64,000 nt of DNA from Thermoproteota archaeon (GTDB taxonomy: Archaea > Korarchaeota > Korarchaeia > Korarchaeales > Korarchaeaceae): positions 1 to 64,000 of the forward strand of contig JAOZFH010000025.1 in NCBI GenBank assembly GCA_027491415.1, in the 5' to 3' direction. The notes below the pieces were generated by a model. It was given only the letters and a program-made list of their open reading frames with translations, did no database searches and was not told where the DNA came from. The translations under genes were made by a program, and so were the position numbers. Positions 2 to 14,214 of this stretch are shown here, piece after piece (the first letter of the stretch is position 1; every line of letters starts with the position of its first letter).

Positions 2-847
2 TATCTGACGGGAGTCTTGAGCTCACTCGCGTCCAGCCTCCCGGAGATCGCCCTGACCCTGATGGCCGTGATGTCGGGCGACCCAGAGGTCGTGGAGGTG
101 GCGGTGCTCACCGTCATGATGAGCGTGGGCGCGGCGACCGTCATAGTCTCCGCGACGGCGGCCGTCGCCTCCATTAAGTCTGGTAGAGGCGTCGTTGAGG
201 TCCCCAAGGAGGCCATGAGCGATGAGCTGAACGCGATTGCCTTCACGCTGACTGCCTACCTGGCCCTCTCCATGGTCTCGATGGCCAGACTCTTCTCGGG
301 TCACTCCAACCAGCTCCCCAGAACCGTCGGCCCGATCCTGCTCCTGGCCTACTTCTCGTACATAGTCATGCTGGCATCTAGGGCGGGGGGCCGGAGGAGG
401 GGGGCGGGGGGCGCCGCCAGACATCTGCTCGTGGGGCTGGCCGCGATGATCCCCGTCTTCATATCCGCCGAGGTGCTAGTCTATCTAGTGGAGGAGCTGA
501 CGACCGCCGGGGGACTCGATGTGGTCCACGCCGCCGCGGCGCTGGCCATGGTTGGGACGGTCCCTGAAAACGGGGTCGCCATCGTCTCCGCGGCGAAGGG
601 GGACGTTGAGATTGGTCTCGGAAACGCGCTGAGCGGGGTCACGATACTGGCGCTGCTGGCCGTCGGGATCGTGGCGAGCGTCAGGCCGATACCCCTCGAC
701 GACTACGTTGTGGCCCAGATGGGGGTCACGACAGCCTCGGCGCTGATGCTGAAGTTCTCCGTGAGGGACGACGGCAAGATAGACCTGGGCGAGGCGATCC
801 TTATGGTCGCCCTGCAGGCCCTGGCGTTCGATCTACTGTTGACCTGA
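2..847 (+). CDS. Sodium/calcium exchanger (CaCA) family membrane protein, 5'-truncated by window edge
   Basis: Alpha-repeat motifs SSLPEI and GTVPEN...GNALSG, many TM helices; frame is open from position 2. Confidence 0.85.
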   Translation, partial: YLTGVLSSLASSLPEIALTLMAVMSGDPEVVEVAVLTVMMSVGAATVIVSATAAVASIKSGRGVVEVPKEAMSDELNAIAFTLTAYLALSMVSMARLFSGHSNQLPRTVGPILLLAYFSYIVMLASRAGGRRRGAGGAARHLLVGLAAMIPVFISAEVLVYLVEELTTAGGLDVVHAAAALAMVGTVPENGVAIVSAAKGDVEIGLGNALSGVTILALLAVGIVASVRPIPLDDYVVAQMGVTTASALMLKFSVRDDGKIDLGEAILMVALQALAFDLLLT

Positions 848-3567: not shown

Positions 3568-4389
3568 TTGGGGCCTGAGCTGGCGGGCGCCGTTGTGAGG
3601 CCGACCTTCGCGAAATCGGCGCTGATTCGCAGCAAGATAGAGGGTATAGATTACGCCGTGAACCCCTACTACGGCTGCCTCCACGGCTGCCGGTACTGCT
3701 ACGCCGCGTGGATGACGAGGAGGCGATATCCGGATCACGTGTGGGGTCTTCACGTCCACCCTAAGGTCAACGTTCATCGGCTCCTGGACAGAGAACTCTC
3801 GTCGGCGAGGCCAGGGCTCTTGGGGATCGGCACGTCCACTGACCCCTACCAGCCGATCGAGTCTAGGTTCCAGCTGACCAGGCGCTGCCTCGAGGTAATC
3901 TCCCACCACCCAGGGTTCGACGTCTCCCTGCTGACCAAGTCTCCGCTGGTCCTGAGAGACCTGGAGGTCCTGAGGGCGATCGACGCGGAGGTCGGATTCT
4001 CTGTCAGCGGCCTGGGGGATGTCGTGAGGCTCCTAGAGCCGAGGGCGCCCCCCGGCGAGGCGAGGCTGGCGGCGCTCAGGAGGCTGTCCTCTGAGGGGTT
4101 GAGGACGTTCGCGTTCATATCTCCGTTGCTGCCCGGGGTCACCGACCGGCAGATCCGGACTCTCTTGAGGGCCGTCGCAGAGGCGAGGCCGAGCAGGGTC
4201 CTGGTGGACGCGCTGAGGTTCAGACCGGGCGTCCTCCAGTCGTTGAGGTCGGCGCTATCCAGCTCCCCCGACCTGCTGCGGGAGCTGGGATCCTACGCGT
4301 CCGATCAGGCGGGGTGGCTTCAACGGGTGAGGGCCGAGATGGAGGAAGCGGCCGCCGGGCTCGGCCTCGCTTTGGAGTTCCTGTTCTGA
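3568..4389 (+). CDS. Radical SAM protein (SplB/Rv2578c-like family)
   Basis: NPYYGCLHGCRYCYA CxxxCxxC motif, TDPYQPIE, TKS; TTG start follows GGAGGTG. Confidence 0.88.
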   Translation: MGPELAGAVVRPTFAKSALIRSKIEGIDYAVNPYYGCLHGCRYCYAAWMTRRRYPDHVWGLHVHPKVNVHRLLDRELSSARPGLLGIGTSTDPYQPIESRFQLTRRCLEVISHHPGFDVSLLTKSPLVLRDLEVLRAIDAEVGFSVSGLGDVVRLLEPRAPPGEARLAALRRLSSEGLRTFAFISPLLPGVTDRQIRTLLRAVAEARPSRVLVDALRFRPGVLQSLRSALSSSPDLLRELGSYASDQAGWLQRVRAEMEEAAAGLGLALEFLF

Positions 4390-4398
4390 GCGGCTAGC

Positions 4399-4626
4399 TT
4401 ACACCTTGGAGGCGTGCACGAGGTAGCTCTTCACGAGCTCTAAACCTGGCAATATCGTCCTGCCCGTAACGAGGGCTGGTGTGACGGCCGTGCCGATCGA
4501 CTGGACGAGGTAGGGGGCGACCCGCGGGTCGTCGGCGTAGACGACCTTCACATCCACTCCCAGAGACCTGGCCAACCTGAGGACCTCTTCGCTCTCGGGT
4601 TGCTCTCTCCTGACCAAAAGTATCAT
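4399..4626 (-). CDS. Small glutaredoxin-like-fold protein without CxxC
   Basis: TPAL cis-Pro loop and beta-alpha pattern; no cysteines. Confidence 0.45.
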   Translation of the reverse strand: MILLVRREQPESEEVLRLARSLGVDVKVVYADDPRVAPYLVQSIGTAVTPALVTGRTILPGLELVKSYLVHASKV

Positions 4627-4722
4627 TGCCACGTGTCCAGCCTGGTCCTCCGACAGTGATAAGGAGAACGGGGTGGGCTTCAGGTCCGATACCTTCTTTT
4701 TCTGTTGGAGGTCGGCGCGCAC

Positions 4723-5883
4723 GTGAAGGCGGAAGGACGGGTGGTCGTCTTCTCAGGCCCCGCGGGAAGCGGGACCTACGAGAGAATGTTAGAGGCGGCG
4801 AAGCTCGCGGAGGAGTGGGGATACGAGGTAAAGGTCGAGAGGCTCTTCGACAGAATGGCGAGGGTGGCCAGGGAGAGATACGGGCTTGAGATAACCGAGG
4901 AGAACGTGCTTAACCTCCTGAGAGAGAGGCTCATCTCCATCAGAAAGGAGGCCGTTGAGCAGATCCGAGAAGAGATCGAACGCAATCCGGGGTTCTACAT
5001 GGTGAGGTCTCCGGCGACCTTCTTCTGGGGAGGGACGCTGATCACGGGGCTCGACCTCGACGACGTCATGAAACTGCGCCCCGACGCCTTCATCGTGGTC
5101 GTAGACGACATCATGCCGGTGAAGGCGAGACTCGCGGCCGATCCTGAGTGGAAGACCCAGAGGTTCACCTTGAGAGATCTGGCCTCTTGGAGAGAGCAGG
5201 AGACCACTCTAGTCGAGGAGCTGGCGAGGTGGACCAAGGCGGAGTTCTACGTGGTCGCGAGGGCTCACCCGCCCCGAGTATTCGCGGACTTAGTCGTCCA
5301 CCCGGAGAAGCCAAAGGCCTACATCAGCTTTCCCATGACGCACGTGCCGCCCGACGTCTACAGGGAGTTTGAGTCAAAGAAGAACAGGTTCATTGACGAT
5401 TTGGACGAGCTGGGCATCGTGATTTTCGACCCGGCGACGATGGCCGAGGGGGTCATACTGTCCAAGCTGGAAGAGTATGAGAACAGGGCCAGGTCCGAGG
5501 GCAGGGAGCCCAACCCTGAGGAGGAGCTGGAGATCACGGTGAGCTACGGCGGGGAGGAGCAGGTCTACAGGTACACCTACCAGGAGCTGGCGGCCGTGGA
5601 CCCTCTAGTCGAGGGTCAGATCGTGAAGAGGGACTTTGCCATGATCGAGTCCGCCAACATGGTGATCGTCTACAACCCACTCGGCATACCCTCGCCGGGC
5701 GTGGCCTGCGAGATGATGTACGCCCACAAGGTCCTGGGGAGGGATGTCTACCTCATCTGGGGAAAGGAGGGTAGGCCGAGTCCGTTCTACACCGCGTTCT
5801 GCAACAAGAGGTTCTCGACGCCGGAGGAGTTCCTCGAATACGCAAGGACTCACGTTAGACCCAGGTGGGGGGGGCTGGGTTAA
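4723..5883 (+). CDS. Adenylate-kinase-like P-loop domain fused to a nucleoside 2-deoxyribosyltransferase-like domain
   Basis: N-terminal GPAGSGT and AdkA-like PDAFIVVVD; C-terminal AYISFPM...RDFAMIESA...SPGVACE; GGAGG upstream of GTG. Confidence 0.7.
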   Translation: MKAEGRVVVFSGPAGSGTYERMLEAAKLAEEWGYEVKVERLFDRMARVARERYGLEITEENVLNLLRERLISIRKEAVEQIREEIERNPGFYMVRSPATFFWGGTLITGLDLDDVMKLRPDAFIVVVDDIMPVKARLAADPEWKTQRFTLRDLASWREQETTLVEELARWTKAEFYVVARAHPPRVFADLVVHPEKPKAYISFPMTHVPPDVYREFESKKNRFIDDLDELGIVIFDPATMAEGVILSKLEEYENRARSEGREPNPEEELEITVSYGGEEQVYRYTYQELAAVDPLVEGQIVKRDFAMIESANMVIVYNPLGIPSPGVACEMMYAHKVLGRDVYLIWGKEGRPSPFYTAFCNKRFSTPEEFLEYARTHVRPRWGGLG

Positions 5884-5913
5884 CCCCACCCCCCTCACAG
5901 ACCCCGCCGAGGG

Positions 5914-6693
5914 TCAGGCCACGAGGGTCCGGCGCTCGCAGCCCCTGAAGGGGGACCTCTTGCTGGCCGCGTCGACAACCCCGGAGAGGAGCTTCGCCAA
6001 GACCAGCGGCGCGAGGAGAAGGCCAGGGATAAACGCCGCTAAGGCGGAGGTCGCCGAGACTAGCCAGTTCCAACCGCCGTGGAGGGCCGCCGCTAGGCCA
6101 TACCACTTCACAAGCTCCAGCGAACTCCCTCCACCGAATTTCAGCCTGCTGAGCCCCCAACCCATGACGCCCGAATCGGCGGCGTGCCCCACGGTCGACA
6201 TGAGCCCCCTGCCGGCCGCCGCTAGGGCCCACCCGCCGACCCCCATCTCCCCCAGGCCGCTGATCCCCGCTAGCAGGTTCTCGACCCACGCGAACCCCAT
6301 CGCGCTGGTGACCGCGTAGAACACTACGTCAAGCTCGTCGTTAACTTCGGCGCTCCTCCACAGTAGGTAGAGCCCCAGGGGCTTCACGAATTCCTCAACC
6401 AGCGGAGCCACGAGGACCGAGTTGACCAGCGGCCTCCCGGTATCCAGGAGGAGTTCCGCTAGGATGGCCGGGGCCGCGCTGGCGGCGCCCACCACAAAGG
6501 CCACCGCCACCAGCGCGTAGGGCTCCGGCTCCCGATAGTCCCAGCTCCGGACGTAAGACACCCACGCCAGCGCGGGCAGCAGAGAGCCGAGACAGACGGC
6601 GTAAGGCTCGCCGATCAGCCCGGCATAGCCGAGGGCGAGCGTCGCCAAGAAGCCGAGCATCACGGCAAGAGTCCACCCTCCGGTTCGGCCCAC
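5914..6693 (-). CDS. PrsW family intramembrane metalloprotease
   Basis: PEP, EEFVK, GFAWVEN, GH, LHGGWN motifs. Confidence 0.9.
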   Translation of the reverse strand: MGRTGGWTLAVMLGFLATLALGYAGLIGEPYAVCLGSLLPALAWVSYVRSWDYREPEPYALVAVAFVVGAASAAPAILAELLLDTGRPLVNSVLVAPLVEEFVKPLGLYLLWRSAEVNDELDVVFYAVTSAMGFAWVENLLAGISGLGEMGVGGWALAAAGRGLMSTVGHAADSGVMGWGLSRLKFGGGSSLELVKWYGLAAALHGGWNWLVSATSALAAFIPGLLLAPLVLAKLLSGVVDAASKRSPFRGCERRTLVA

Positions 6694-6771: not shown

Positions 6772-7056
6772 ATGGCCGACGTCTGGGTGACCGTTCAGAG
6801 GGTCTTCGGGAGCTGCCCTGTTCACTCCGAGGGGGATCGGTTCGTCCTCCACGATGGCTTCGCTCTCGACAGTCTGGGTGGAAGCGTCTGCCTCCACGCC
6901 CTCTTGGGGATGGCTGCCCTTCTGTGGGCTCTTGGCCACGGGCACAGTCCCGAGGAGCTGTCACTCGGAGATCCCCCTCTGCTGGCTTGCCCCGACCCGG
7001 GTCCGCCCATCTCGTGCGGGGGGAGGGTCCTCTTCAGGCTGGAGGTTAGGGAGTAG
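6772..7056 (+). CDS. TIGR04076-like small Cys-rich protein
   Basis: GSCPVH-GD-F, VCLHA, CPDPG motifs. Confidence 0.75.
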   Translation: MADVWVTVQRVFGSCPVHSEGDRFVLHDGFALDSLGGSVCLHALLGMAALLWALGHGHSPEELSLGDPPLLACPDPGPPISCGGRVLFRLEVRE

Positions 7057-7120: not shown

Positions 7121-8224
7121 ATGCGCAGAGAGGCGGTGGCCTCAGCTGCCCTCATGCTCCTCCTCACCCCCGCGGTATGGAGGACTGTGAACACCAGCCC
7201 GTCGTACTCGATATCCATCTTCGTGACTCCGGAGGGGGAATCAGTGGGCGACTCGTTCACCACGTCGGTCAGGGTGACTGTCGACGGCCTCCAGGCGGGG
7301 ACGGCCTATGCGGTCTCCACGACCACGGATCCTGACGGGAGGGAGAGGTACTACCGGCAATCTCCCCAGTGGACGTACGCGGACATGCCCGTGGACTACA
7401 GGACGACGTGGACTCTCACGGCTGACAAGGCGGGAACCTGGACTTCCTGCGTCTCCCTGGTATTTGACGGAGATGCTCCAAACGGCGGGGGGTACCAGAA
7501 GATCACCAAGTGTGCCTCGTTCACCGTAAGCGATCCGGGAGGCGGAGGAGGGGGCGGTGGTGGGGGTGGAGACAACCCTCCGCCGAGCAAGAGGCCCACC
7601 AAGCTGACCATGGCAGCAAATCCAAGTACTGTAGAGCCCGGCAAGACGTTCAGCGTCGGTGGAGGCCTGTTCGACGCAAGCCAGAGCGACTGGTGGAACT
7701 ACCCCATAGCCGGGGCCACGATAGCTGTGACATTCAACGGCCAGACGAAGACCGCCACGACTCGCTCTGACGGCGGCTGGAGCGTGGTGTTCACGGCTCC
7801 AAGCCAGGAGGGGATCTACGCGGCCAGGGCCAGCTTCGCGGGCAACTCCCAGTACGAGGGGAATTCGGCCAGCACCACCATCAGGGTCCAGAGACACTCC
7901 AAGAGGGACTGCATAGTCGAGCTCATCTACCCGGAGAAGGTCCACGTCGGCGATATAGTCAGCATCACCGTCGTGTTAAAGGATGCGGAGACGCATCAGG
8001 AGATCAAGGGGAAGGTGGTGACGCTCTACATCGAGGCGAACAGCCATCAGATAGAGTCAGGAGCTTCATTCACGATCCAGGCGGAGTATCCCGGGACCAT
8101 AGACGTCGGGGCCAGGTTTGAGGGAGACAGCGAGTACAACGGGGCCTATGACCCGGGAGGGCTGATAGAGGTCTGGACGAGGCCGAGGATCACAATTACA
8201 TACGTGGGGTGTGGGGAGGGATGA
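7121..8224 (+). CDS. Secreted three-Ig-domain protein with poly-Gly linker and an extra C-terminal strand (putative filament tip)
   Basis: Signal peptide; three Big-like domains (FAGNSQYEG, FEGDSEYNG); ends W-TRPRITITYVGCGEG. Confidence 0.8.
   Translation: MRREAVASAALMLLLTPAVWRTVNTSPSYSISIFVTPEGESVGDSFTTSVRVTVDGLQAGTAYAVSTTTDPDGRERYYRQSPQWTYADMPVDYRTTWTLTADKAGTWTSCVSLVFDGDAPNGGGYQKITKCASFTVSDPGGGGGGGGGGGDNPPPSKRPTKLTMAANPSTVEPGKTFSVGGGLFDASQSDWWNYPIAGATIAVTFNGQTKTATTRSDGGWSVVFTAPSQEGIYAARASFAGNSQYEGNSASTTIRVQRHSKRDCIVELIYPEKVHVGDIVSITVVLKDAETHQEIKGKVVTLYIEANSHQIESGASFTIQAEYPGTIDVGARFEGDSEYNGAYDPGGLIEVWTRPRITITYVGCGEG
7538..7570 (+). repeat. 11 consecutive Gly codons forming a flexible linker
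   Basis: GGN x11 with mixed third positions. Confidence 0.9.
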
Positions 8225-8868
8225 GGAAGAGGGATCTCCTGGCCTTGCTACTGCTCACGCTGGCCGTGGCCCCGGCCCTGGCCCAGACAAAGGTTTACAG
8301 GGGGGGCACGGTGACGGTGTCAGGCGTCGTCAGGGACGAGCTGGGCAACCCCGTCGCCGGAGCGGCCGTCCAGCTCCTGGACGGGGCCACGGTGTTGGAC
8401 TCCACAACCACCGGCTCGGACGGGTCATTCACGCTGATCTGGACGGTGCCAGCCGACCACACCCTCGGGCCGAAGACCCTGACGGTCTACGTGCCGGAGC
8501 AGCCTAGCCTCTACGTCGAGGCGTCCTCAACTTCTGTCTCCGTAGAGATCTGGGCCTTGGTCGTGGTGAGCGCCAGCGGGCCTCAGCGCATTCACAGGGG
8601 GGATGCTGTAACCGTGACGGGGACTGTCGAGGGGATGAACTCGGGGACTGTGGAGGTTCAGTGTGGAGCAAGCACCGTAGCGACCGGCTCCGTGAGCGGG
8701 GGCCAGTTCAGCGTGAGCTTCACCGTGCCCGACGACTGGGAGAAGGGACCCATCACGCTCACGGTCACCTCACCTGGAGGGAGCTACGTGGACGTCCATG
8801 GTAGCCAGGTGAACACGGAGCTCTGGGTCAGGCCGACGATAGAGGTCACAAAGGTCTCGGGCGGATGA
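8221..8868 (+). CDS. Secreted two-Ig-domain protein (putative polymerising shaft subunit)
   Basis: ATGA overlap with upstream stop; signal peptide APALA|QTKVYRG; ends W-VRPTIEVTKVSGG; no TM anchor. Confidence 0.8.
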   Translation: MRKRDLLALLLLTLAVAPALAQTKVYRGGTVTVSGVVRDELGNPVAGAAVQLLDGATVLDSTTTGSDGSFTLIWTVPADHTLGPKTLTVYVPEQPSLYVEASSTSVSVEIWALVVVSASGPQRIHRGDAVTVTGTVEGMNSGTVEVQCGASTVATGSVSGGQFSVSFTVPDDWEKGPITLTVTSPGGSYVDVHGSQVNTELWVRPTIEVTKVSGG

Positions 8869-8872
8869 CCGC

Positions 8873-10066
8873 ATGGTGAGAAAAAGCTCTGGGGTCATTC
8901 TGACCCTCTTAGTGCTCACGGCGACTCTAGCGCTAGCTCAGACCCAGGTCGTGCGGGGGCAGCTCGTGACCATCACGGTCAGGCTCACGGATGAGGAAGG
9001 CGCTCCGATAGCCGGTGTGAAGGTTCACTTCCTGGACGAGACGGACGGGGTTGAGATAGGGGTCGACGTGACCGACTCCAGCGGCTACGCTAGCGTGACC
9101 TGGGACACCTCAACCGCGAGCCCTGGTGCCCACTCGATCCTGATCTGGACGGAGGAGGCCGACTACGTGGAATCGGCTCAAACCGGGGTGGGAGTAGTGA
9201 TCTTGGCTCCAGCCGAGCTCAGGCTCAGCGTCTCGGCGCCGGCCGCCGTGAAGCCGAGACAGGGCTTCCGAATCAGGGTTACTGTCATGAACGCAGGCGA
9301 GGCAGCGGCCCTAGACGTCGCGGTCTCGTTGAACGGGTCGACCAAGAGTGTCGGTGACCTGCCGGCGGGAGTCAGCTCGACCTTGGAGTTCTCCGCGGTC
9401 GCCCCAGCCAGGCCCGGGGAGTACAGTCTATCGCTACTGGCGAGCGGGACGGAGTGGGGCACCCAAAGACCCCTTTCAACGTCGCTCGAGGTTAACTACA
9501 GCGTCGAGTTCGGGGGAATTGCGCTGGAGATAAGGGCCCCCCCGTCCGTCAGGGAGGGGGAGTCGTTCAACTTCTCTCTGGCGTTAACCAATCTCGGGGG
9601 GAGGCCAATACCCCTCTCAATTCAGATCAACCTCTCTGGAGCCCAGCCCGAACGCATCGAGGACGCCCTTACCCTCGACCCCATGTCCAGCGTCACACGC
9701 GCCTACGCCGCCACGGCGGGCCGGGCGGATCGGGTTCGGGTGACGGCCCTCGCCCAGGGAGGGGGCTTGAGAGCAAGGGACGAAGTCGTTATCGAGGTCA
9801 CTTCTGCAGGATCACCCCATCGGCCCCCTGCCAATGGAGCGAACGCGACCGCGTCCTCTCGGCCGCCGACAAGTCCGCCGCCTCTTAGACGCTCGTCCTC
9901 CGCTTCCGGGAAGAGTGAGGCGGCGCTTGAGGTAAACGTAGCGGCCGAAACGCGCGCCAAGGAAGCCGCGCCGCTGCTGACCGGAGAAATCCCGGCGGCT
10001 GGATCCGCCCTCGCACTGGTCGTTTTAGTCGTTCTCAGGGGGATTTGGAGGGTGGAAGACCCGTAG
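8873..10066 (+). CDS. Secreted Ig/CARDB-like multidomain protein with Pro/Ser linker and C-terminal TM anchor (putative base)
   Basis: Signal peptide LALA|QTQVVRG; VMNAG and LTNLG CARDB-like motifs; C-terminal hydrophobic helix followed by Arg residues. Confidence 0.8.
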   Translation: MVRKSSGVILTLLVLTATLALAQTQVVRGQLVTITVRLTDEEGAPIAGVKVHFLDETDGVEIGVDVTDSSGYASVTWDTSTASPGAHSILIWTEEADYVESAQTGVGVVILAPAELRLSVSAPAAVKPRQGFRIRVTVMNAGEAAALDVAVSLNGSTKSVGDLPAGVSSTLEFSAVAPARPGEYSLSLLASGTEWGTQRPLSTSLEVNYSVEFGGIALEIRAPPSVREGESFNFSLALTNLGGRPIPLSIQINLSGAQPERIEDALTLDPMSSVTRAYAATAGRADRVRVTALAQGGGLRARDEVVIEVTSAGSPHRPPANGANATASSRPPTSPPPLRRSSSASGKSEAALEVNVAAETRAKEAAPLLTGEIPAAGSALALVVLVVLRGIWRVEDP

Positions 10067-10086: not shown

Positions 10087-11520
10087 TCAAGATCGGCTCG
10101 CCACGGTTTCAACGCCGTGTGAGGCGGCCGACCGCGGCTCTCCGAGGAGGCCGGTGAGCATCACCGCCTCCACCCCCTCCACGGCGGCCTCGTCGTAATA
10201 CACCACGTACCCTCCGCTCTCAAGGGGAGCCACGTCTCGAACTACGTAATGAACGAATCCAGAGTGGGCGAGAAAGTTCCTGATGTGGTCGAACGTAAAC
10301 CTCGCCGAGACGGCGTCCTCGAGCAGCCTCGCTGGCTTTGAGTTCTGGCGAGAAGCCACGAGGCGCTCTAACCACGCTCCGAGTTCTCTCTCGGGGTTCC
10401 GACCGAGGGCGCCCGGCCTGAGGAAATCCAGGGATCCCCCGGCCAGAAACCACAGCCGAAATAGCGGCGCCCCCCGCGGGAGCCGCCCGACCCTGCACTC
10501 CACGGCCTTCCTCTCCAGGAGGAAGCTGGCGAGGGTGGAGGGATCTGCGCCTCTTCTCGCTGGCGGAGCCTCGTCCAAGGTACCAGAGACCTCCGAGAGG
10601 AGTAAGTGGTACTGCAGGGCCATCCCCTTCTGCCTGTAGAGCGAGATTAGCTTGCCTATAAGGCCAGAGGGGAGTTCTCCAACCTGGCAGCCGGGGCCCG
10701 GGTTGAGAAGGCCGGAGGCCCTCCGAGCGAACTCACTCACCAGCTGGGGGATGACCTGAGAAGGCAGCTCCTTGATGCCATGCGCCTCACCCTCGACCTC
10801 TGCCCACTCCAGTAGCCTGAGTAGCCTGCACAGGTGGAGGTGAACAATCAGGGGGGATCCCAATGAGATTCCAAGGGAGATAAGCGCGACCTCCCTCAGC
10901 AGGTCCGCGGGGAGGCCTGACTGAAGGTTCTTCGCAGCCTCGATCAGCCTCACCCACAGGGAGGTGAGTTGGGGGTCTTCCAGTACCCTCGCTAGAGTCT
11001 CGGCTATCCTAGCTGTCTCCAAGACGCTCAAAGGTGGCGTATACAACTTCAATGATGTTGGAAGGCCGGGTCTTCGAGCGACCACGGTCAGTCTGCGGCC
11101 GGTCGTCAGGGAGTGCGCCAGCGACCCCAGGAGGGCGGACGAGGTCACCGGATCGAGTCCCCCCCAGGGGACGAGAAAGGTCACGGTCTCCGCCCCCTCG
11201 AGGGATGAAAGAGCGGAGACCGTTGCGGCGAACGCCCGCTCGCCGAGTTCCTCCGGGGTCAACCTCTCGGCGCCCTCCAGGGGCACCTCGACTATCCGGA
11301 GAGCCGAGTTGGAGGTGGCCACTCGGCTAAAGACCTCCCGTTCCGGCCCCGTCGGAATAAGCACCACCAGGATCGTCTCACCCTCAACGCTGGCGAGATT
11401 ATCGAGCCCGGAGAGGGCCCACTCCAGCGCCTCCAAGACCGAAGCTAGTCCACCCACTTCATTCGGAGGCGCGCACACGGGCAGCAGGGCGGCGGAGGGC
11501 AAATCGAGATTCACCCCCAA
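10087..11520 (-). CDS. Divergent Csx1/Csm6-like CARF-HEPN putative ribonuclease
   Basis: C-terminal IRNFLAHSGF matches the Csx1-type HEPN RxxxxH motif (10258-10281); Rossmann-like N-terminus. Confidence 0.65.
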   Translation of the reverse strand: MGVNLDLPSAALLPVCAPPNEVGGLASVLEALEWALSGLDNLASVEGETILVVLIPTGPEREVFSRVATSNSALRIVEVPLEGAERLTPEELGERAFAATVSALSSLEGAETVTFLVPWGGLDPVTSSALLGSLAHSLTTGRRLTVVARRPGLPTSLKLYTPPLSVLETARIAETLARVLEDPQLTSLWVRLIEAAKNLQSGLPADLLREVALISLGISLGSPLIVHLHLCRLLRLLEWAEVEGEAHGIKELPSQVIPQLVSEFARRASGLLNPGPGCQVGELPSGLIGKLISLYRQKGMALQYHLLLSEVSGTLDEAPPARRGADPSTLASFLLERKAVECRVGRLPRGAPLFRLWFLAGGSLDFLRPGALGRNPERELGAWLERLVASRQNSKPARLLEDAVSARFTFDHIRNFLAHSGFVHYVVRDVAPLESGGYVVYYDEAAVEGVEAVMLTGLLGEPRSAASHGVETVASRS

Positions 11521-12248
11521 TTGAGGACGGGTTCCCCCTGGCTACTCACCCTCCTCAGGGCCAGTATCCCCTCGAGAATGGCCCTTCCGAGGCCGGTTGC
11601 CTTCACGTCTCTGGCGGGGCCGATGTCGACCAGGCCCGCCCTAATCAGCCAGGCGGCCAGCTCTCCATCGACTCGGTCATATCTCCCGGAGAGGACTCTC
11701 TCAACACTCTCGAGGATGGTCGGAGGCACAGGAAGGATGGGGAGCTTGTGGACCTCGTGGTCATCTCTCTCGGGCCAGAAGATCTCCCTAAGGATGGGGT
11801 CCTCCACCTTGTCCTGGGAGGAGAGTGCCTTCCTCCACCTTTCGAGACTCCTCCCTGAAGCCTTCATCGATACCGCGTAGACGCCCTCAAGCGGAACCAG
11901 CTGGGCTATCGACGTCAGCAGGGCTGCCAGCTCAGGAGTTGAGCAGGATACCAGCACGCTCACTAGGTCAGGGTTGACGGCCCCCAGGGCCTCACAGATG
12001 ATCTCCAGCCACAATTCCGTCGGACCGCGGAGTTCTACTCCCTCGACCTCCACCCACCTGTACTTCTGGCTGAATGACCTCTCCAAGACCTGCCGGACCC
12101 AGTCATACCCGGGCGGGACCGCAAGCAGCACCATCTCCGGGGTCGACTCGCTCCTAGAGAGGTGCTCGTAAACCCTGGTGACGATCCACGGCTCGCCGCA
12201 GGCGGGAGATAAAAGCACTCTGGTGGCCCCTTTGGCCCGGAAGGGCAT
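11511..12248 (-). CDS. Divergent CARF (Csx14/NE0113-like) plus C-terminal wHTH protein
   Basis: VLLSP..G.PWIVT start, AQL...VYAV, KLPILP, and wHTH tail LIRAGLV...ATGLGR. Confidence 0.55.
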   Translation of the reverse strand: MPFRAKGATRVLLSPACGEPWIVTRVYEHLSRSESTPEMVLLAVPPGYDWVRQVLERSFSQKYRWVEVEGVELRGPTELWLEIICEALGAVNPDLVSVLVSCSTPELAALLTSIAQLVPLEGVYAVSMKASGRSLERWRKALSSQDKVEDPILREIFWPERDDHEVHKLPILPVPPTILESVERVLSGRYDRVDGELAAWLIRAGLVDIGPARDVKATGLGRAILEGILALRRVSSQGEPVLNWG

Positions 12249-12442
12249 CGCCTAGGCCTTTCAGAGGCGGGTCTTAATGGTGATGGGGGGAAATTTCCAA
12301 ATAAAACGTAAAAACAGAAAATTCGTCTTGTAAGAGCATTCAAACTAGCCTACGCCAGCACAAGGCCAGCTTACGTCAGGGGAGCCCTCTCGCTCATCAG
12401 CTTATTAAGGAAGTTGACCAAAAACTCATCCAGGAGCGTCCG

Positions 12443-12631
12443 GTGGCACAGGAGTTGGGATTCCGGGACCCTGCATGGCGACCACCTGAGAGCCTAGTAT
12501 CTATTCTCGGGGAAAGAATGTCATTGGACAAATCAGCAAAGCTCGACAGGATCTACTACAAGACCTGGGGGTTTCTGTTTGGCGTGAATCCAATGACGGC
12601 TAGCCAAAATTTGGAGGGGCGTAACAGATGA
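12443..12631 (+). CDS. Small hypothetical protein
   Basis: GGAG upstream; stop overlaps next start (ATGA). Confidence 0.45.
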   Translation: MAQELGFRDPAWRPPESLVSILGERMSLDKSAKLDRIYYKTWGFLFGVNPMTASQNLEGRNR

Positions 12632-14214
12632 TCGAACTGAGTGATGCCGACAATCTTGAGAAAGCTTTCGCGTTAGCCATCGAGAAGGCTTCTAATGAGA
12701 TGGATCTCTCGCCTGTTCGGCCTATCCCTCAAAAGATTGTGTTAGAGGACTTTCCAATCCTCAACGGCTACAGGGCCGGGGTTCTCGCCTCTAAAGATAA
12801 GCTCATATTAAGTTCAAGACTTAACGTAAAGAGATTAAGATCAGTAATAGCAAGAGAGGCGTTTAATTTGCTTATACCAGAGAATCTCGATCGGCTTAGG
12901 GTGATTTATGACCTCGCTTGGGCCTATTCTGGGGCAGAGCTCAGCTGGTGGAAAGAGTGCAGCCAGGTAATCTGGGACCCTCGATTCCCTCTATACAACG
13001 CACCTGAAGTGCTCTCCCCTCTACCAAGGAAGAGGCTGGTTATGGTCCTCCGGCGGATGCTCCACCTCTTGCGGGGGTTAAATGATGTCGGCCGTAGAGT
13101 CACGCTCGAAGAATACCTTTCCATATTTAGCGAGGCAGCCGGGCTTCTTGAGCCAGTTAGACTTTCCAAGGTTCAGATCAAGGTGATCGAGGAACTCGCT
13201 AGGAGCCCGTATCTCACACAAGGAGAGTTGGCCAGAAAGCTTGGATTCTCAAAATCCGCAGTATCAAAAGCTCTATCCAAGCTCACCGCTCTCGGAATAC
13301 TGAGTGGCCCTGAGAACGTTGTACTCGAGCGAATCGGACTGGCCGGACTCTTAGCCATTGTCCCGGACAGCCCGATAATGGAGAAAGCATTCGCCAAATT
13401 TCCATTCACTTATCGGATCTTAAGGCCCATATCGCGGGCTCTGCCATCATTTATCATATTAATTTTTCCCAACGAGGGCCTGACCAGTCTTAGGTTAGTT
13501 CTGAATTCTGGCAGGACCAAGCTCGCTAGGATGCTTAGATTAACGTTCACTCACAAGACTACATCCTTCAACCCGGACTCTGATGTCGAGAAAGCTCTCA
13601 GGCTACTCAGCGAAGGGATTGAGTTCAAAATCCGCGGAGAAAGGGAGGTCGTCGTTCCTAAACTCAATAGACACGATCTGATGATCGTAAATCGCGTTCT
13701 ACGGAAGGGTCGAGTTAGTGTGTCCGTAGTCAGGGCAATGGGAATACCTTCGGCGGAATCAAGGCTCCGAAGGCTCAGGGAGTTGGGCGTCCTAAGAAAG
13801 TTCTACACAGTTGGCGGATATCGACTCGGGAGGCCAATTTCAGTTATGATAAATTCTAAACAGGAAGACTTTCCGAGAATTTCTGCCGCCCTAGGCGCCA
13901 TGTCAACATCTCTATCCGTTTACGTTGAAGGAGACTTCAGTGGAGTTTGGGGCCTACTCCTTACCTCAGATCGCGACGTTCTCAAGCTAATTCAGTCATT
14001 GAGGCTGATCTTTGGGAACCAGTTAGAGAACGCTGCGCCGCTACTAGACTTCTCTCCCTCCTACTGGAGCATTCCGATAGACCTCTGGGACGAACGGGAC
14101 AACCGCTTCAGGTACGAGGCCGCTCTCGAGGAACTCGCCTCACAAATCTTACCCTATCACCCTGGAGACGCTGGAAGACCACCCGGCGACCAGCGCCCTG
14201 ATGAGGTCGACTGA
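12628..14214 (+). CDS. Large tandem wHTH / Lrp-AsnC-like regulator with a degenerate peptidase-like N-terminus
   Basis: HTH TQGELARKLGFSKSAVSKAL; second wHTH LNRHDL...RLRRLRELGVL; AREAF segment; low-GC codons. Confidence 0.7.
   Translation: MIELSDADNLEKAFALAIEKASNEMDLSPVRPIPQKIVLEDFPILNGYRAGVLASKDKLILSSRLNVKRLRSVIAREAFNLLIPENLDRLRVIYDLAWAYSGAELSWWKECSQVIWDPRFPLYNAPEVLSPLPRKRLVMVLRRMLHLLRGLNDVGRRVTLEEYLSIFSEAAGLLEPVRLSKVQIKVIEELARSPYLTQGELARKLGFSKSAVSKALSKLTALGILSGPENVVLERIGLAGLLAIVPDSPIMEKAFAKFPFTYRILRPISRALPSFIILIFPNEGLTSLRLVLNSGRTKLARMLRLTFTHKTTSFNPDSDVEKALRLLSEGIEFKIRGEREVVVPKLNRHDLMIVNRVLRKGRVSVSVVRAMGIPSAESRLRRLRELGVLRKFYTVGGYRLGRPISVMINSKQEDFPRISAALGAMSTSLSVYVEGDFSGVWGLLLTSDRDVLKLIQSLRLIFGNQLENAAPLLDFSPSYWSIPIDLWDERDNRFRYEAALEELASQILPYHPGDAGRPPGDQRPDEVD

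What the first reader, a model, noticed from the sequence alone, without database searches (positions are those of the whole stretch)
7121..10066. Candidate new archaeal filament: tip-shaft-anchor operon assembled by C-terminal donor-strand complementation
Seen in sequence: each internal Ig domain begins with strand A followed by a P-x-x-V/I-x-x-G turn (RPTKLTMAAN-PSTVEPG, RDCIVELIY-PEKVHVG, ALVVVSASG-PQRIHRG, APAELRLSVSA-PAAVKPR). After their signal peptides, proteins 2 and 3 begin directly at that turn (QTKVYRGGTVTV, QTQVVRGQLVTI), so their first domain lacks strand A. Proteins 1 and 2 each end in one surplus, mutually similar strand A (EVW-TRPRITITYVGCGEG, ELW-VRPTIEVTKVSGG). Protein 1 is therefore donor only, protein 2 is acceptor plus donor with no anchor, and protein 3 is acceptor plus C-terminal TM. 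The genes are tightly coupled (ATGA overlap, 4-nt gap). Inference: tip-(shaft)n-base filament. Established: chaperone-usher pili and archaeal bundling pili use N-terminal donor strands, and Bacteroidia type V pili use C-terminal ones after protease maturation. Here the groove looks genetically pre-opened, with no chaperone, usher or prepilin peptidase nearby. I do not recognise this arrangement from a described system.
Basis: partly seen in the sequence, partly recalled or inferred. Interest (0 to 1): 0.92.

Follow-up and report, generated by a model that had tools for sequence, protein, structure and literature searches.

The report
Archaeal surface fibre joined by strand-swapping
Three neighbouring genes of an uncultured hot-spring archaeon encode secreted immunoglobulin-like proteins that appear built to click together end to end, each lending its last beta-strand to the next protein's first domain, giving a membrane-anchored surface fibre of a kind not yet described in archaea.

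Summary
Three coupled + strand genes encode P1 (7121-8224), P2 (8221-8868) and P3 (8873-10066). All are secreted Ig-domain proteins.

Profile alignment shows that P2's first domain equals its second domain minus strand A. P2's 13-residue C-terminal tail sits where a further strand A would follow.

AF2 monomer models leave the P1 and P2 tails unstructured and give P1's first domain its own strand A.

A two-copy P2 prediction puts the tail of one copy antiparallel to strand B of the other copy's first domain. The arrangement is open and head-to-tail (ipSAE 0.62, best control 0.00).

The gene order and the missing/extra strand pattern recur in every related locus found, across three genera of one small archaeal phylum. 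Two loci lack P2 and pair P1 directly with P3.

No chaperone, usher or nearby peptidase was found. All described archaeal donor-strand fibres I read about use N-terminal donors.

Best reading: a chaperone-free, C-terminal strand-donation chain, P3 anchor, P2 extender, P1 cap. Its polarity is opposite to known donor-strand pili. Chain length is unknown. All support is computational.

The parts
7121..8224 (+). P1 gene: donor-only cap/tip protein, 367 aa. It has a signal peptide, three beta-sandwich domains and a C-terminal tail.
   Evidence: ORF. AF2 model has pLDDT 82.5, with domains at 28-137, 160-256 and 264-352. Big_3_5 scores 31.3 bits, below its cut-off.
7202..7228 (+). P1 domain 1's own strand A (residues 28-36). 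P1 therefore has no open acceptor site.
   Evidence: Strand E28-36. The motif is conserved in 14 of 14 P1-like sequences with an intact N-terminus.
7538..7570 (+). Poly-glycine linker between P1 domains 1 and 2.
   Evidence: pLDDT is below 50 for residues 140-154. Its length varies among orthologues.
8177..8221 (+). P1 C-terminal donor tail (residues 353-367).
   Evidence: No secondary structure in the monomer model. W352, T353 and P355 are invariant. Best match to the P2 tail, z 6.8.
8221..8868 (+). P2 gene: acceptor plus donor extender, 215 aa, two Ig domains.
   Evidence: AF2 pLDDT 93.9. CarboxypepD_reg 34.7 bits, over its cut-off.
8221..8283 (+). P2 signal peptide, with cleavage inferred after A-x-A.
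   Evidence: Read from the sequence. A21 and Q22 are invariant in 14 sequences. No signal-peptide predictor was run.
8284..8553 (+). P2 domain 1, the acceptor. It has 7 strands and begins at A'.
   Evidence: It forms the interface in copy 2: residues 2-5, 8-21 and 76-87.
8554..8580 (+). Internal strand A of P2 domain 2, the in-chain equivalent of the tails.
8827..8865 (+). P2 C-terminal donor tail (mature residues 182-194).
   Evidence: Unstructured in the monomer. Pairs antiparallel with strand B residues 10-17 of the second copy. L, W, P and I are invariant in all 16 sequences; R is invariant in the 14 and is K in the two sister-genus sequences added.
8873..10066 (+). P3 gene: acceptor-only membrane anchor, 397 aa.
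   Evidence: CARDB 26.3 bits, over its cut-off. Six database homologues.
8873..8938 (+). P3 signal peptide (inferred).
   Evidence: Read from the sequence. Aligns with the P2 signal peptide boundary.
8939..9205 (+). P3 domain 1, an acceptor homologous to P2 domain 1 from its first mature residue.
   Evidence: BLASTP aligns P2 Q22 with P3 Q23 at 32% identity, E 7e-9. No structure was predicted for P3.
9989..10036 (+). P3 C-terminal hydrophobic segment (membrane anchor), preceded by a Pro/Ser/Thr-rich stalk from about 9812.
   Evidence: Read from the sequence. Present in 15 of 15 P3-like sequences.
10037..10063 (+). Conserved C-terminal motif after the anchor, basic-x-[IFLV]-W-[RKG]-V-E.
   Evidence: Found in 14 of 15 P3-like sequences. 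Occurs only in P3 in this genome.

Best explanation
The three genes encode the parts of a non-covalent, membrane-anchored chain of Ig-like domains on the cell surface.

Each protein is exported by the Sec route, and its signal peptide is cut by signal peptidase I (inferred). In P2 and P3, cleavage leaves a first Ig domain that starts at strand A' and so lacks strand A. P1 and P2 each end in one surplus strand after the last domain's closing tryptophan.

That tail inserts in trans as strand A, antiparallel to strand B of the next protein's first domain (predicted). In effect the repeat register of an ordinary tandem-Ig protein is shifted by one strand and the array is cut into separate gene products.

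P3 accepts only and has a C-terminal transmembrane segment, so it is the base. P2 accepts and donates, so it extends the chain and can add to itself. P1 donates only and has a complete first domain, so it caps the distal end. No chaperone, usher or activating protease is needed.

The polarity is base = acceptor-only and tip = donor-only. This is the reverse of chaperone-usher, type V, WxL/Elr and CPR Pam pili. Subunits must therefore add at the distal end or pre-assemble before docking.

I think a short stalk with zero to a few P2 units is somewhat more likely than a long pilus. The function is probably adhesion or surface spacing, and the ligand is unknown.
For: Shown by sequence:
- Gene coupling.
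- P2 domain 1 equals domain 2 minus strand A, with the tail in the strand A position (99.3%, E 1.6e-19).
- The P1 and P2 tails are mutually best matches.
- In giant covalent tandem-Ig homologues, the profile positions of the tail align in-chain and are followed directly by the next domain's A'-B segment. I examined 7 domain hits in 6 proteins, out of 4193 hits at E<=1e-3.

Predicted:
- Both tails are unstructured in the monomer models, and P1 domain 1 has its own strand A.
- P2 x 2 scored ipSAE 0.62, 0.62 and 0.63, with best control 0.00. That mark was reached by 20 of 30 proteins solved as pairs of one chain and by 1 of 23 solved as single chains. These counts hold only roughly here because my own alignment was used. 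The runs agree in at least 98% of contacts, and partner pLDDT is at least 93.
- The interface is asymmetric. Copy 1 uses residues 104-105, 150, 154-155 and 179-194. Copy 2 uses residues 2-5, 8-21, 24, 27, 29, 68, 70 and 76-87. Tail residues 186-192 run antiparallel to residues 10-17. One groove and one tail therefore stay free.

Conservation:
- A P1-like gene lies directly upstream of P2 in 12 of 12 loci. A P3-like gene lies directly downstream in 11 of 12; in the twelfth the contig ends.
- The same three roles occur in a different family at 33-38% identity (G030).
- Neighbouring genes are not conserved outside the genus.
- P1-P3 pairs without P2 show that a P1-type tail faces a P3-type acceptor directly.
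- The tail and anchor motifs occur nowhere else in this genome.

Geometry (inference): the 13-residue tail leaves domain 2 at the pole opposite to where strand A of domain 1 begins, so it cannot complement its own chain.
Against: - There is no experiment, no expression data and no observed fibre.
- The complex prediction may reflect the model's memory of in-chain tandem Ig arrays. Its controls were unrelated proteins only. No tail-deleted or scrambled control could be run.
- P2 domain 1 is predicted well folded without the strand (block pLDDT 90-98), so an obligate open groove is not shown.
- Conservation does not single out the interface. Domain 1 interface columns score 0.820 against 0.819 for the rest. 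The tail window ranks 74th of 182, although it is above the protein mean (0.77-0.80 against 0.745) and above domain 2 (0.67).
- By sequence alone the tail matches another strand slightly better than strand A.
- P3 was not modelled. Its acceptor status rests on homology to P2 domain 1.
- Signal peptide cleavage sites are inferred, not predicted by a tool.
Confidence: 0.62

Rival explanations
1. A true long pilus. P2 homopolymerises into a shaft of many subunits by the same C-terminal strand donation, with P1 at the tip and P3 at the base.
For: The P2 x 2 prediction is open and head-to-tail, leaving a free groove and a free tail. The P1 and P2 tails are alike, and within G030 both carry the same unusual K-P-H-F start. 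This suggests that tails and grooves are interchangeable.
Against: Dyads lacking P2 exist in two genomes. The ATGA overlap suggests near-equal synthesis of P1 and P2. With the acceptor at the base, growth would have to occur at the distal tip by diffusion. No machinery is conserved nearby. Structure prediction cannot tell P2-P2 from P2-P3 specificity.
Confidence: 0.28
2. Three ordinary, independent secreted or anchored Ig-domain surface proteins. The N-terminal domains are complete 7-stranded sandwiches, and the conserved tails serve another purpose such as a linker remnant, a stability element or binding to an S-layer or glycan partner.
For: Domain 1 is confidently folded alone. Pfam sees only generic Ig families. 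Foldseek finds only generic tandem Ig/macroglobulin folds and no pilin. Interface columns are no more conserved than the rest.
Against: This does not explain why the strand shift is exact. It does not explain why donor-only, donor+acceptor and acceptor+anchor roles and the gene order persist to 33-38% identity. It does not explain why both tails are unstructured yet conserved, or why the prediction docks the tail in the canonical strand A position with controls at 0.00.
Confidence: 0.2
3. The tail is a processing or sorting signal, cleaved or covalently attached by an enzyme such as a sortase-like or archaeosortase-like transpeptidase. Alternatively, the juxtaposed donor C-terminal Gly-Gly and acceptor N-terminal Gln become covalently linked after docking.
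For: Most P2 tails end in Gly-Gly (12 of the 14), and the mature N-terminal Gln is invariant in the 14 closest P2 sequences. A PrsW-family membrane protease lies next to the operon in this window.
Against: The tail has no hydrophobic segment and no LPXTG- or PGF-type motif (read from the sequence). PrsW is kept in only 1 of 3 same-genus loci and in neither sister-genus locus. The motif occurs in no other protein of the genome, which is unlike a general sorting signal.
Confidence: 0.06

Closest known systems
Type V pili of Bacteroidia (FimA/Mfa1)
   Same: They are the only natural system in my literature searches in which the donor strand is C-terminal and fills a groove left by a missing N-terminal strand. 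They also have tip, shaft and anchor subunits encoded together (PMC8512630, passages read; listing).
   Different: There the groove is opened by Arg-gingipain cleavage of a lipoprotein precursor, and the anchor keeps its N-terminus and is a donor at the base. Here signal peptidase cleavage alone would leave the site open. There is no lipobox and no FimA/Mfa Pfam hit at E<=0.1. The anchor is the acceptor and is held by a transmembrane segment. The organism is archaeal with a single membrane. The subunits are tandem Ig domains.
Archaeal thread filaments (Saci_0406) and other archaeal donor-strand fibres (bundling pili, AbpX, cannulae, Tafi)
   Same: They are archaeal, Sec- or Tat-exported, and thought to assemble without chaperone or usher by strand donation, with a cap protein encoded alongside. 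I read passages of PMC9715654, preprint 10.64898/2026.01.04.697558 and PMC12337348.
   Different: Threads and AbpX donate an N-terminal strand, and the AbpX preprint's general description of donor-strand complementation is N-terminal too. A C-terminal donor appears there only as an engineered self-complemented AbpX. For Tafi, cannulae and AbpA I saw no statement of which end donates: the Tafi passages do not say, and the cannulae paper was seen only in listings. Their folds are jelly-roll or pilin-like single domains, not tandem Big/CARDB Ig domains. No sequence or fold match to them appeared among the rows shown. Threads also have isopeptide bonds.
Chaperone-usher pili, WxL/Elr pili of Bacillota and Pam pili of CPR bacteria
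   Same: They use non-covalent donor-strand linkage of Ig-like subunits and have distinct tip, shaft and terminator subunits. Elr and Pam operate in single-membrane cells with membrane-anchored components (10.64898/2026.10.17.759780, sections 7 and 9 read; PMC13278184, passages read).
   Different: Those use an N-terminal or linker donor strand, need PapD-like chaperones, and have an acceptor-only tip and a donor-only base. Here PF00345 was not found in a 96% complete genome, the donor is C-terminal, and the polarity is reversed.
Giant covalent tandem-Ig surface proteins (Big_3_5 / CarboxypepD_reg / CARDB arrays)
   Same: They share the same domain family: the P2 profile hits 4193 proteins at E<=1e-3, and most of the top hits are 1000-6300 aa arrays. 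The tail is homologous to their in-chain inter-domain strand.
   Different: Here the array is divided among three signal-peptide-bearing gene products, cut exactly between strands A and A'.

Membership tests
Chaperone-usher pili | PapD-like periplasmic chaperone | tested here: not met
   PF00345 gave 0 matches in G000 (96.28% complete). The same search fired in 2 of 14 control genomes.
Chaperone-usher pili | N-terminal extension as donor, with the C-terminal G strand missing in the acceptor | tested here: not met
   The missing strand is the N-terminal A strand, and the donor is the C-terminal tail.
Chaperone-usher pili | Outer-membrane usher | not tested
   No usher family search was run. None of the nine window ORFs scanned between 3289 and 14214 hit such a family.
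Type V pili (FimA/Mfa1) | C-terminal donor strand filling a groove vacated by an N-terminal strand | tested here: met
   Met by prediction only: interface and register.
Type V pili (FimA/Mfa1) | Lipoprotein precursor (signal peptidase II, lipobox Cys) and protease removal of a pro-strand | tested here: not met
   There is no Cys at the signal peptide boundary. The A-x-A|Q boundary is directly followed by strand A' (read from sequence). The feature definition comes from PMC8512630.
Type V pili (FimA/Mfa1) | FimA/Mfa-type pilin fold or family | tested here: not met
   No such Pfam family at E<=0.1. No pilin appears among the Foldseek rows shown, ranks 1-50.
Archaeal threads / TasA-like bundling pili / AbpX | N-terminal donor strand on a single-domain subunit | tested here: not met
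   The mature N-termini of P2 and P3 begin inside the domain at A', and the donor is C-terminal.
Archaeal threads / TasA-like bundling pili / AbpX | Dedicated signal peptidase I gene in the locus | tested here: not met
   The only PF10502 match lies on contig C60, not in the window on C6.
Type IV pilus-like archaeal filaments | Class III signal peptide and prepilin peptidase, with an assembly ATPase in the locus | tested here: not met
   PF01478 matches lie on contigs C20 and C51. The signal peptides are n-h-c type with A-x-A, read from sequence. A T2SSE ATPase flanks only the P2-less dyad loci of another genus.
Sortase-assembled pili | LPXTG-type sorting signal and covalent linkage | tested here: not met
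   No LPXTG is visible in the termini listed. No sortase search was run.
Tandem bacterial/archaeal Ig-like surface proteins (CarboxypepD_reg, CARDB, Big_3_5) | Pfam domain over the gathering score | tested here: met
   P2 CarboxypepD_reg scores 34.7 against a cut-off of 32.3. P3 CARDB scores 26.3 against 22.7. P1 Big_3_5 scores 31.3 against 35.5, below the cut-off.

The most novel reading that the evidence does not exclude
This is a self-assembling archaeal pilus of a new class. A tandem-Ig array has its repeat register shifted by one strand and is split into separate secreted subunits, which zip together by donating a C-terminal strand A. It needs no chaperone, usher or activating protease. 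P2 homopolymerises into long filaments. Because the membrane anchor is the acceptor and the cap is the donor, the fibre grows at its distal end, which is the opposite polarity to every donor-strand pilus described so far.
Probability: 0.28. Interest if true: 0.88.

Novelty: new variant of a known kind. Interest (0 to 1): 0.72.

Why it matters
Donor-strand complementation has so far been seen as N-terminal donation (chaperone-usher pili, Elr, threads, AbpX), linker-strand donation (Pam) or protease-activated C-terminal donation (type V pili).

A system in which signal peptide removal alone leaves the acceptor site open, and the anchor rather than the tip is the acceptor, would have three consequences:
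- It would add a third route to such fibres.
- It would show how a long adhesin can be broken into modular, exchangeable gene products: P1-P3 alone, or with P2 inserted.
- It would give a first candidate surface structure for a phylum known almost only from metagenomes.

The parts are small, Cys-poor and from a thermophile. The idea is therefore directly testable by recombinant expression. The tail/acceptor pair might also serve as a heat-stable protein-joining tag.

Tried and rejected
- PrsW protease as a maturation enzyme: rejected. It is kept in 1 of 3 same-genus loci and in neither of the two sister-genus loci.
- A general C-terminal sorting signal: rejected. The tail and anchor motifs occur only in P1/P2 and in P3 in the whole genome.
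- Self-complementation in cis: not seen in either monomer model, and excluded by geometry (inference).
- Function of the P1 tip domain: nothing useful. The Atlas feature search peaked at 0.86, below the level that means anything. Foldseek gave generic macroglobulin/Ig folds. Pfam gave nothing for residues 25-140.
- PDB sequence search with the P2 profile: one weak hit, a SusC-homologue CarboxypepD_reg domain, E 8.9e-4.
- Fused P1-P2 or P2-P3 forms: none among 11 hits (lengths searched 201-643 aa) or 6 hits (218-695 aa). The 'longer' and 'shorter' length modes were not run.
- Conservation as a test of the interface: uninformative.
- Sequence-only identification of the tail as strand A: ambiguous, rank 2 of 167.
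- Metagenome scan for more distant systems: only 5 of 15 loci were true relatives, all of the same family.
- Expression: the look-up of sequencing runs listed no run ('none was listed').
- Complex prediction could be run once, so P1+P2, P2+P3 and tail-deleted controls were not run.
- Supplementary files of the papers were not opened. Supplementary figures of the thread, Elr and AbpX papers may show further subunit architectures that I did not see.
- Literature searches behind 'not described'.


Full report
**What is there.** Three + strand ORFs fill 7121-10066.
- P1 is 367 aa, P2 is 215 aa from the ATG at 8221, and P3 is 397 aa.
- The P1 stop overlaps the P2 start (ATGA), and 4 nt separate P2 from P3.
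- Pfam and NCBIfam see only generic Ig-like families. CarboxypepD_reg scores 34.7 bits in P2 and CARDB 26.3 bits in P3, both over their cut-offs. Big_3_5 scores 31.3 bits in P1, below its cut-off.
- Each protein starts with a basic-hydrophobic signal segment.
- P3 ends in a Pro/Ser/Thr-rich stretch, a hydrophobic segment and a conserved basic-x-I-W-R-V-E motif.
- Record titles and source names of close relatives call the organism an uncultured Thermoproteota, Nitrososphaerota or Korarchaeota archaeon. Its phylum holds only 43 genomes in the genome collection.

**The strand pattern.**
- AF2 of mature P2 (16-row alignment, pLDDT 93.9, pTM 0.72) gives two Ig domains. Domain 1 has seven strands and begins at A' (residues 2-5). 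Domain 2 has an additional strand A that continues straight out of domain 1's last strand (81-98). The last 13 residues have no secondary structure.
- AF2 of P1 (14 rows, pLDDT 82.5) gives three sandwiches. The first has its own strand A (28-36). A poly-Gly linker is disordered, and the last 15 residues are unstructured.
- hhalign of P2 domain 1 against domain 2 plus tail aligns residue 1 with residue 100 and W90 with W181 (99.3%, E 1.6e-19). Domain 1 therefore equals domain 2 without strand A, and the tail follows W181 exactly as strand A follows W90.
- P2 and P3 align from their first mature residues.
- The P1 and P2 tails are each other's best profile match (35.1; z 6.8 and 7.4).
- Against this, by sequence alone the P2 tail matches window 152-163 slightly better than strand A, which ranks 2 of 167.

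**Relation to ordinary tandem arrays.** The P2 profile hits 4193 proteins at E<=1e-3 among 1.84 billion representatives. The top hits are mostly 1000-6300 aa multi-repeat proteins. I examined 7 domain hits in 6 of these. In each, the profile positions of the tail align in-chain, and the next residues look like the A'-B start of another domain, as in mature P2. The operon therefore looks like a tandem-Ig array cut between strands A and A', with a signal peptide added to each piece.

**Complex prediction.**
- ipSAE was 0.62, 0.62 and 0.63, and the best of 3 controls with unrelated partners scored 0.00.
- The tool's mark was reached by 20 of 30 proteins solved as pairs of one chain and by 1 of 23 solved as single chains. 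These counts hold only roughly here because my own alignment was used.
- The runs agree in at least 98% of contacts, and partner pLDDT is at least 93.
- The interface is one-sided. Copy 1 contributes residues 179-194 and a few domain 2 loop residues. Copy 2 contributes residues 2-5, 8-21 and 76-87 of domain 1. Tail residues 186-192 run antiparallel to strand B residues 10-17.
- This is the canonical A-B pairing, and it leaves one tail and one acceptor free.
- The pass may reflect the model's knowledge of in-chain Ig arrays. It supports binding and does not show it.

**Conservation.**
- P2 has 15 database relatives, P1 has 11 and P3 has 6.
- With the P2 profile, 9 of 43 genomes of the phylum match at E<=1e-8, in 3 of 10 genera. 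The largest genus has 0 of 21.
- I inspected 12 loci with a P2-like gene: the window, five same-family genomes, one genome of another family, and five metagenome contigs. One metagenome contig appears to repeat a genome. A P1-like gene lies directly upstream in 12 of 12. A P3-like gene lies directly downstream in 11 of 12; the twelfth contig ends.
- In the termini table, 18 of 18 P2-like and 17 of 17 P1-like sequences end in W-x-[RK]-P plus a strand. 14 of 14 N-terminally intact P1-like sequences carry their own strand A. 15 of 15 P3-like sequences begin at the A' turn after the signal segment and end in a hydrophobic anchor. The lists overlap, so these are not independent counts.
- The G030 triad belongs to another family and is 33-38% identical. 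It keeps all three roles, and both of its tails share an unusual K-P-H-F start.
- Outside the genus only the triad is syntenic, not its neighbours.
- Two loci, in G018 and on a second contig of G009, have P1 immediately followed by P3 with no P2.
- Column conservation is not decisive. The tail scores 0.77-0.80 against 0.745 overall. Domain 1 interface columns score 0.820 against 0.819 for non-interface columns.

**Machinery.**
- No PapD-like chaperone was found in the 96% complete genome.
- The two prepilin peptidase matches and the one signal peptidase I match lie on other contigs.
- The adjacent PrsW protease is not conserved with the triad.
- The tail and anchor motifs occur only in these genes.

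**Mechanism proposed.** P3 is the membrane-anchored acceptor, P2 is an acceptor-donor extender, and P1 is a donor-only cap.
- Cis complementation is excluded by geometry, because the tail leaves the pole opposite to the start of domain 1's strand A site (inference).
- The polarity is anchor = acceptor and tip = donor. This is the reverse of what I read for type V pili (PMC8512630, passages), Elr pili (preprint 10.64898/2026.10.17.759780, sections 7 and 9), Pam pili (PMC13278184, passages) and the thread cap discussion (PMC9715654, passages). Subunits would have to add distally or pre-assemble.
- That polarity, the dyads and the translational coupling make me favour a short modular stalk over a long pilus. 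The P2-P2 prediction keeps polymerisation open.

**Comparison and novelty.**
- The archaeal donor-strand fibres whose donor end I could read, threads and AbpX, use N-terminal donors. The AbpX preprint describes donor-strand complementation generally as N-terminal. The Tafi passages I read do not say which end donates, and the cannulae paper was seen only in listings.
- A full-text search for 'C-terminal donor strand' returned 10 papers. Judged from the listing, and from passages read in two of them (PMC8512630 and the AbpX preprint), the natural C-terminal donors are those of type V pili. In AbpX the C-terminal donor is an engineered self-complemented construct. The rest I judged from titles and abstract starts only.
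- Searches joining donor strand with Korarchaeota, or chaperone-free archaeal Ig-like systems, found nothing like this.
- It fails the defining tests of chaperone-usher, type V, thread/TasA-type, type IV and sortase pili (see the membership table).
- I rate it a new variant of a known kind: donor-strand assembly with a new donor/acceptor arrangement, a new fold context and a new polarity.

**Limits.**
- No sequencing run was listed.
- Paper supplements were not opened.
- P3 and the hetero-complexes were not modelled.

Noticed in passing
window 5914-6693 (- strand): A PrsW-family intramembrane protease (PF13367, 1.6e-28) lies just upstream of the operon on the other strand. It is kept in only 1 of 3 same-genus loci and in neither sister-genus locus, so it is probably unrelated to the triad.
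   Followed up: yes
L042 (G009:C7) 3835-6488 and L043/L008 (G018:C17): These are P1-P3 dyads without P2. G009 carries both a triad and a dyad, and their tails and acceptor N-termini differ, which may indicate pair specificity. Both dyad loci are flanked by a polytopic membrane protein upstream and a type II/IV secretion-type ATPase downstream (PF00437, 2.8e-12). The triads lack these neighbours.
   Followed up: partly
window 10087-12248 (- strand): Two overlapping ORFs of 477 and 245 aa have no Pfam family. The only hint is a weak match to the C-terminal end of Csx1 (E 0.016). They are conserved in 2 of 3 same-genus loci.
   Followed up: no
window about 12000-14000: GC content drops to 0.50-0.52 against 0.61-0.66 around it. 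The dip covers a 528-aa protein with a winged-helix domain (PF13412, 4.4e-10). That gene is conserved at 69-73% identity in 2 of the 3 same-genus loci compared.
   Followed up: no
window 6772-7056 (+ strand): A small 94-aa ORF directly upstream of P1 is conserved in 3 of 3 same-genus loci (67-80% identity) but has no Pfam family. It is not seen next to the sister-genus triads.
   Followed up: partly
window 8284-8286 and 8860-8865: The mature N-terminal Gln of P2 is invariant in the 14 closest sequences, and most donor tails end in Gly-Gly. In the predicted complex these ends would lie next to each other at the A/A' turn. This raises the untested possibility of a salt bridge, pyroglutamate formation or a cross-link.
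   Followed up: no
window 7538-7570: An 11-residue glycine run links P1 domains 1 and 2. Its length and composition vary among orthologues, and sister-genus P1 proteins carry two extra domains at this position.
   Followed up: partly
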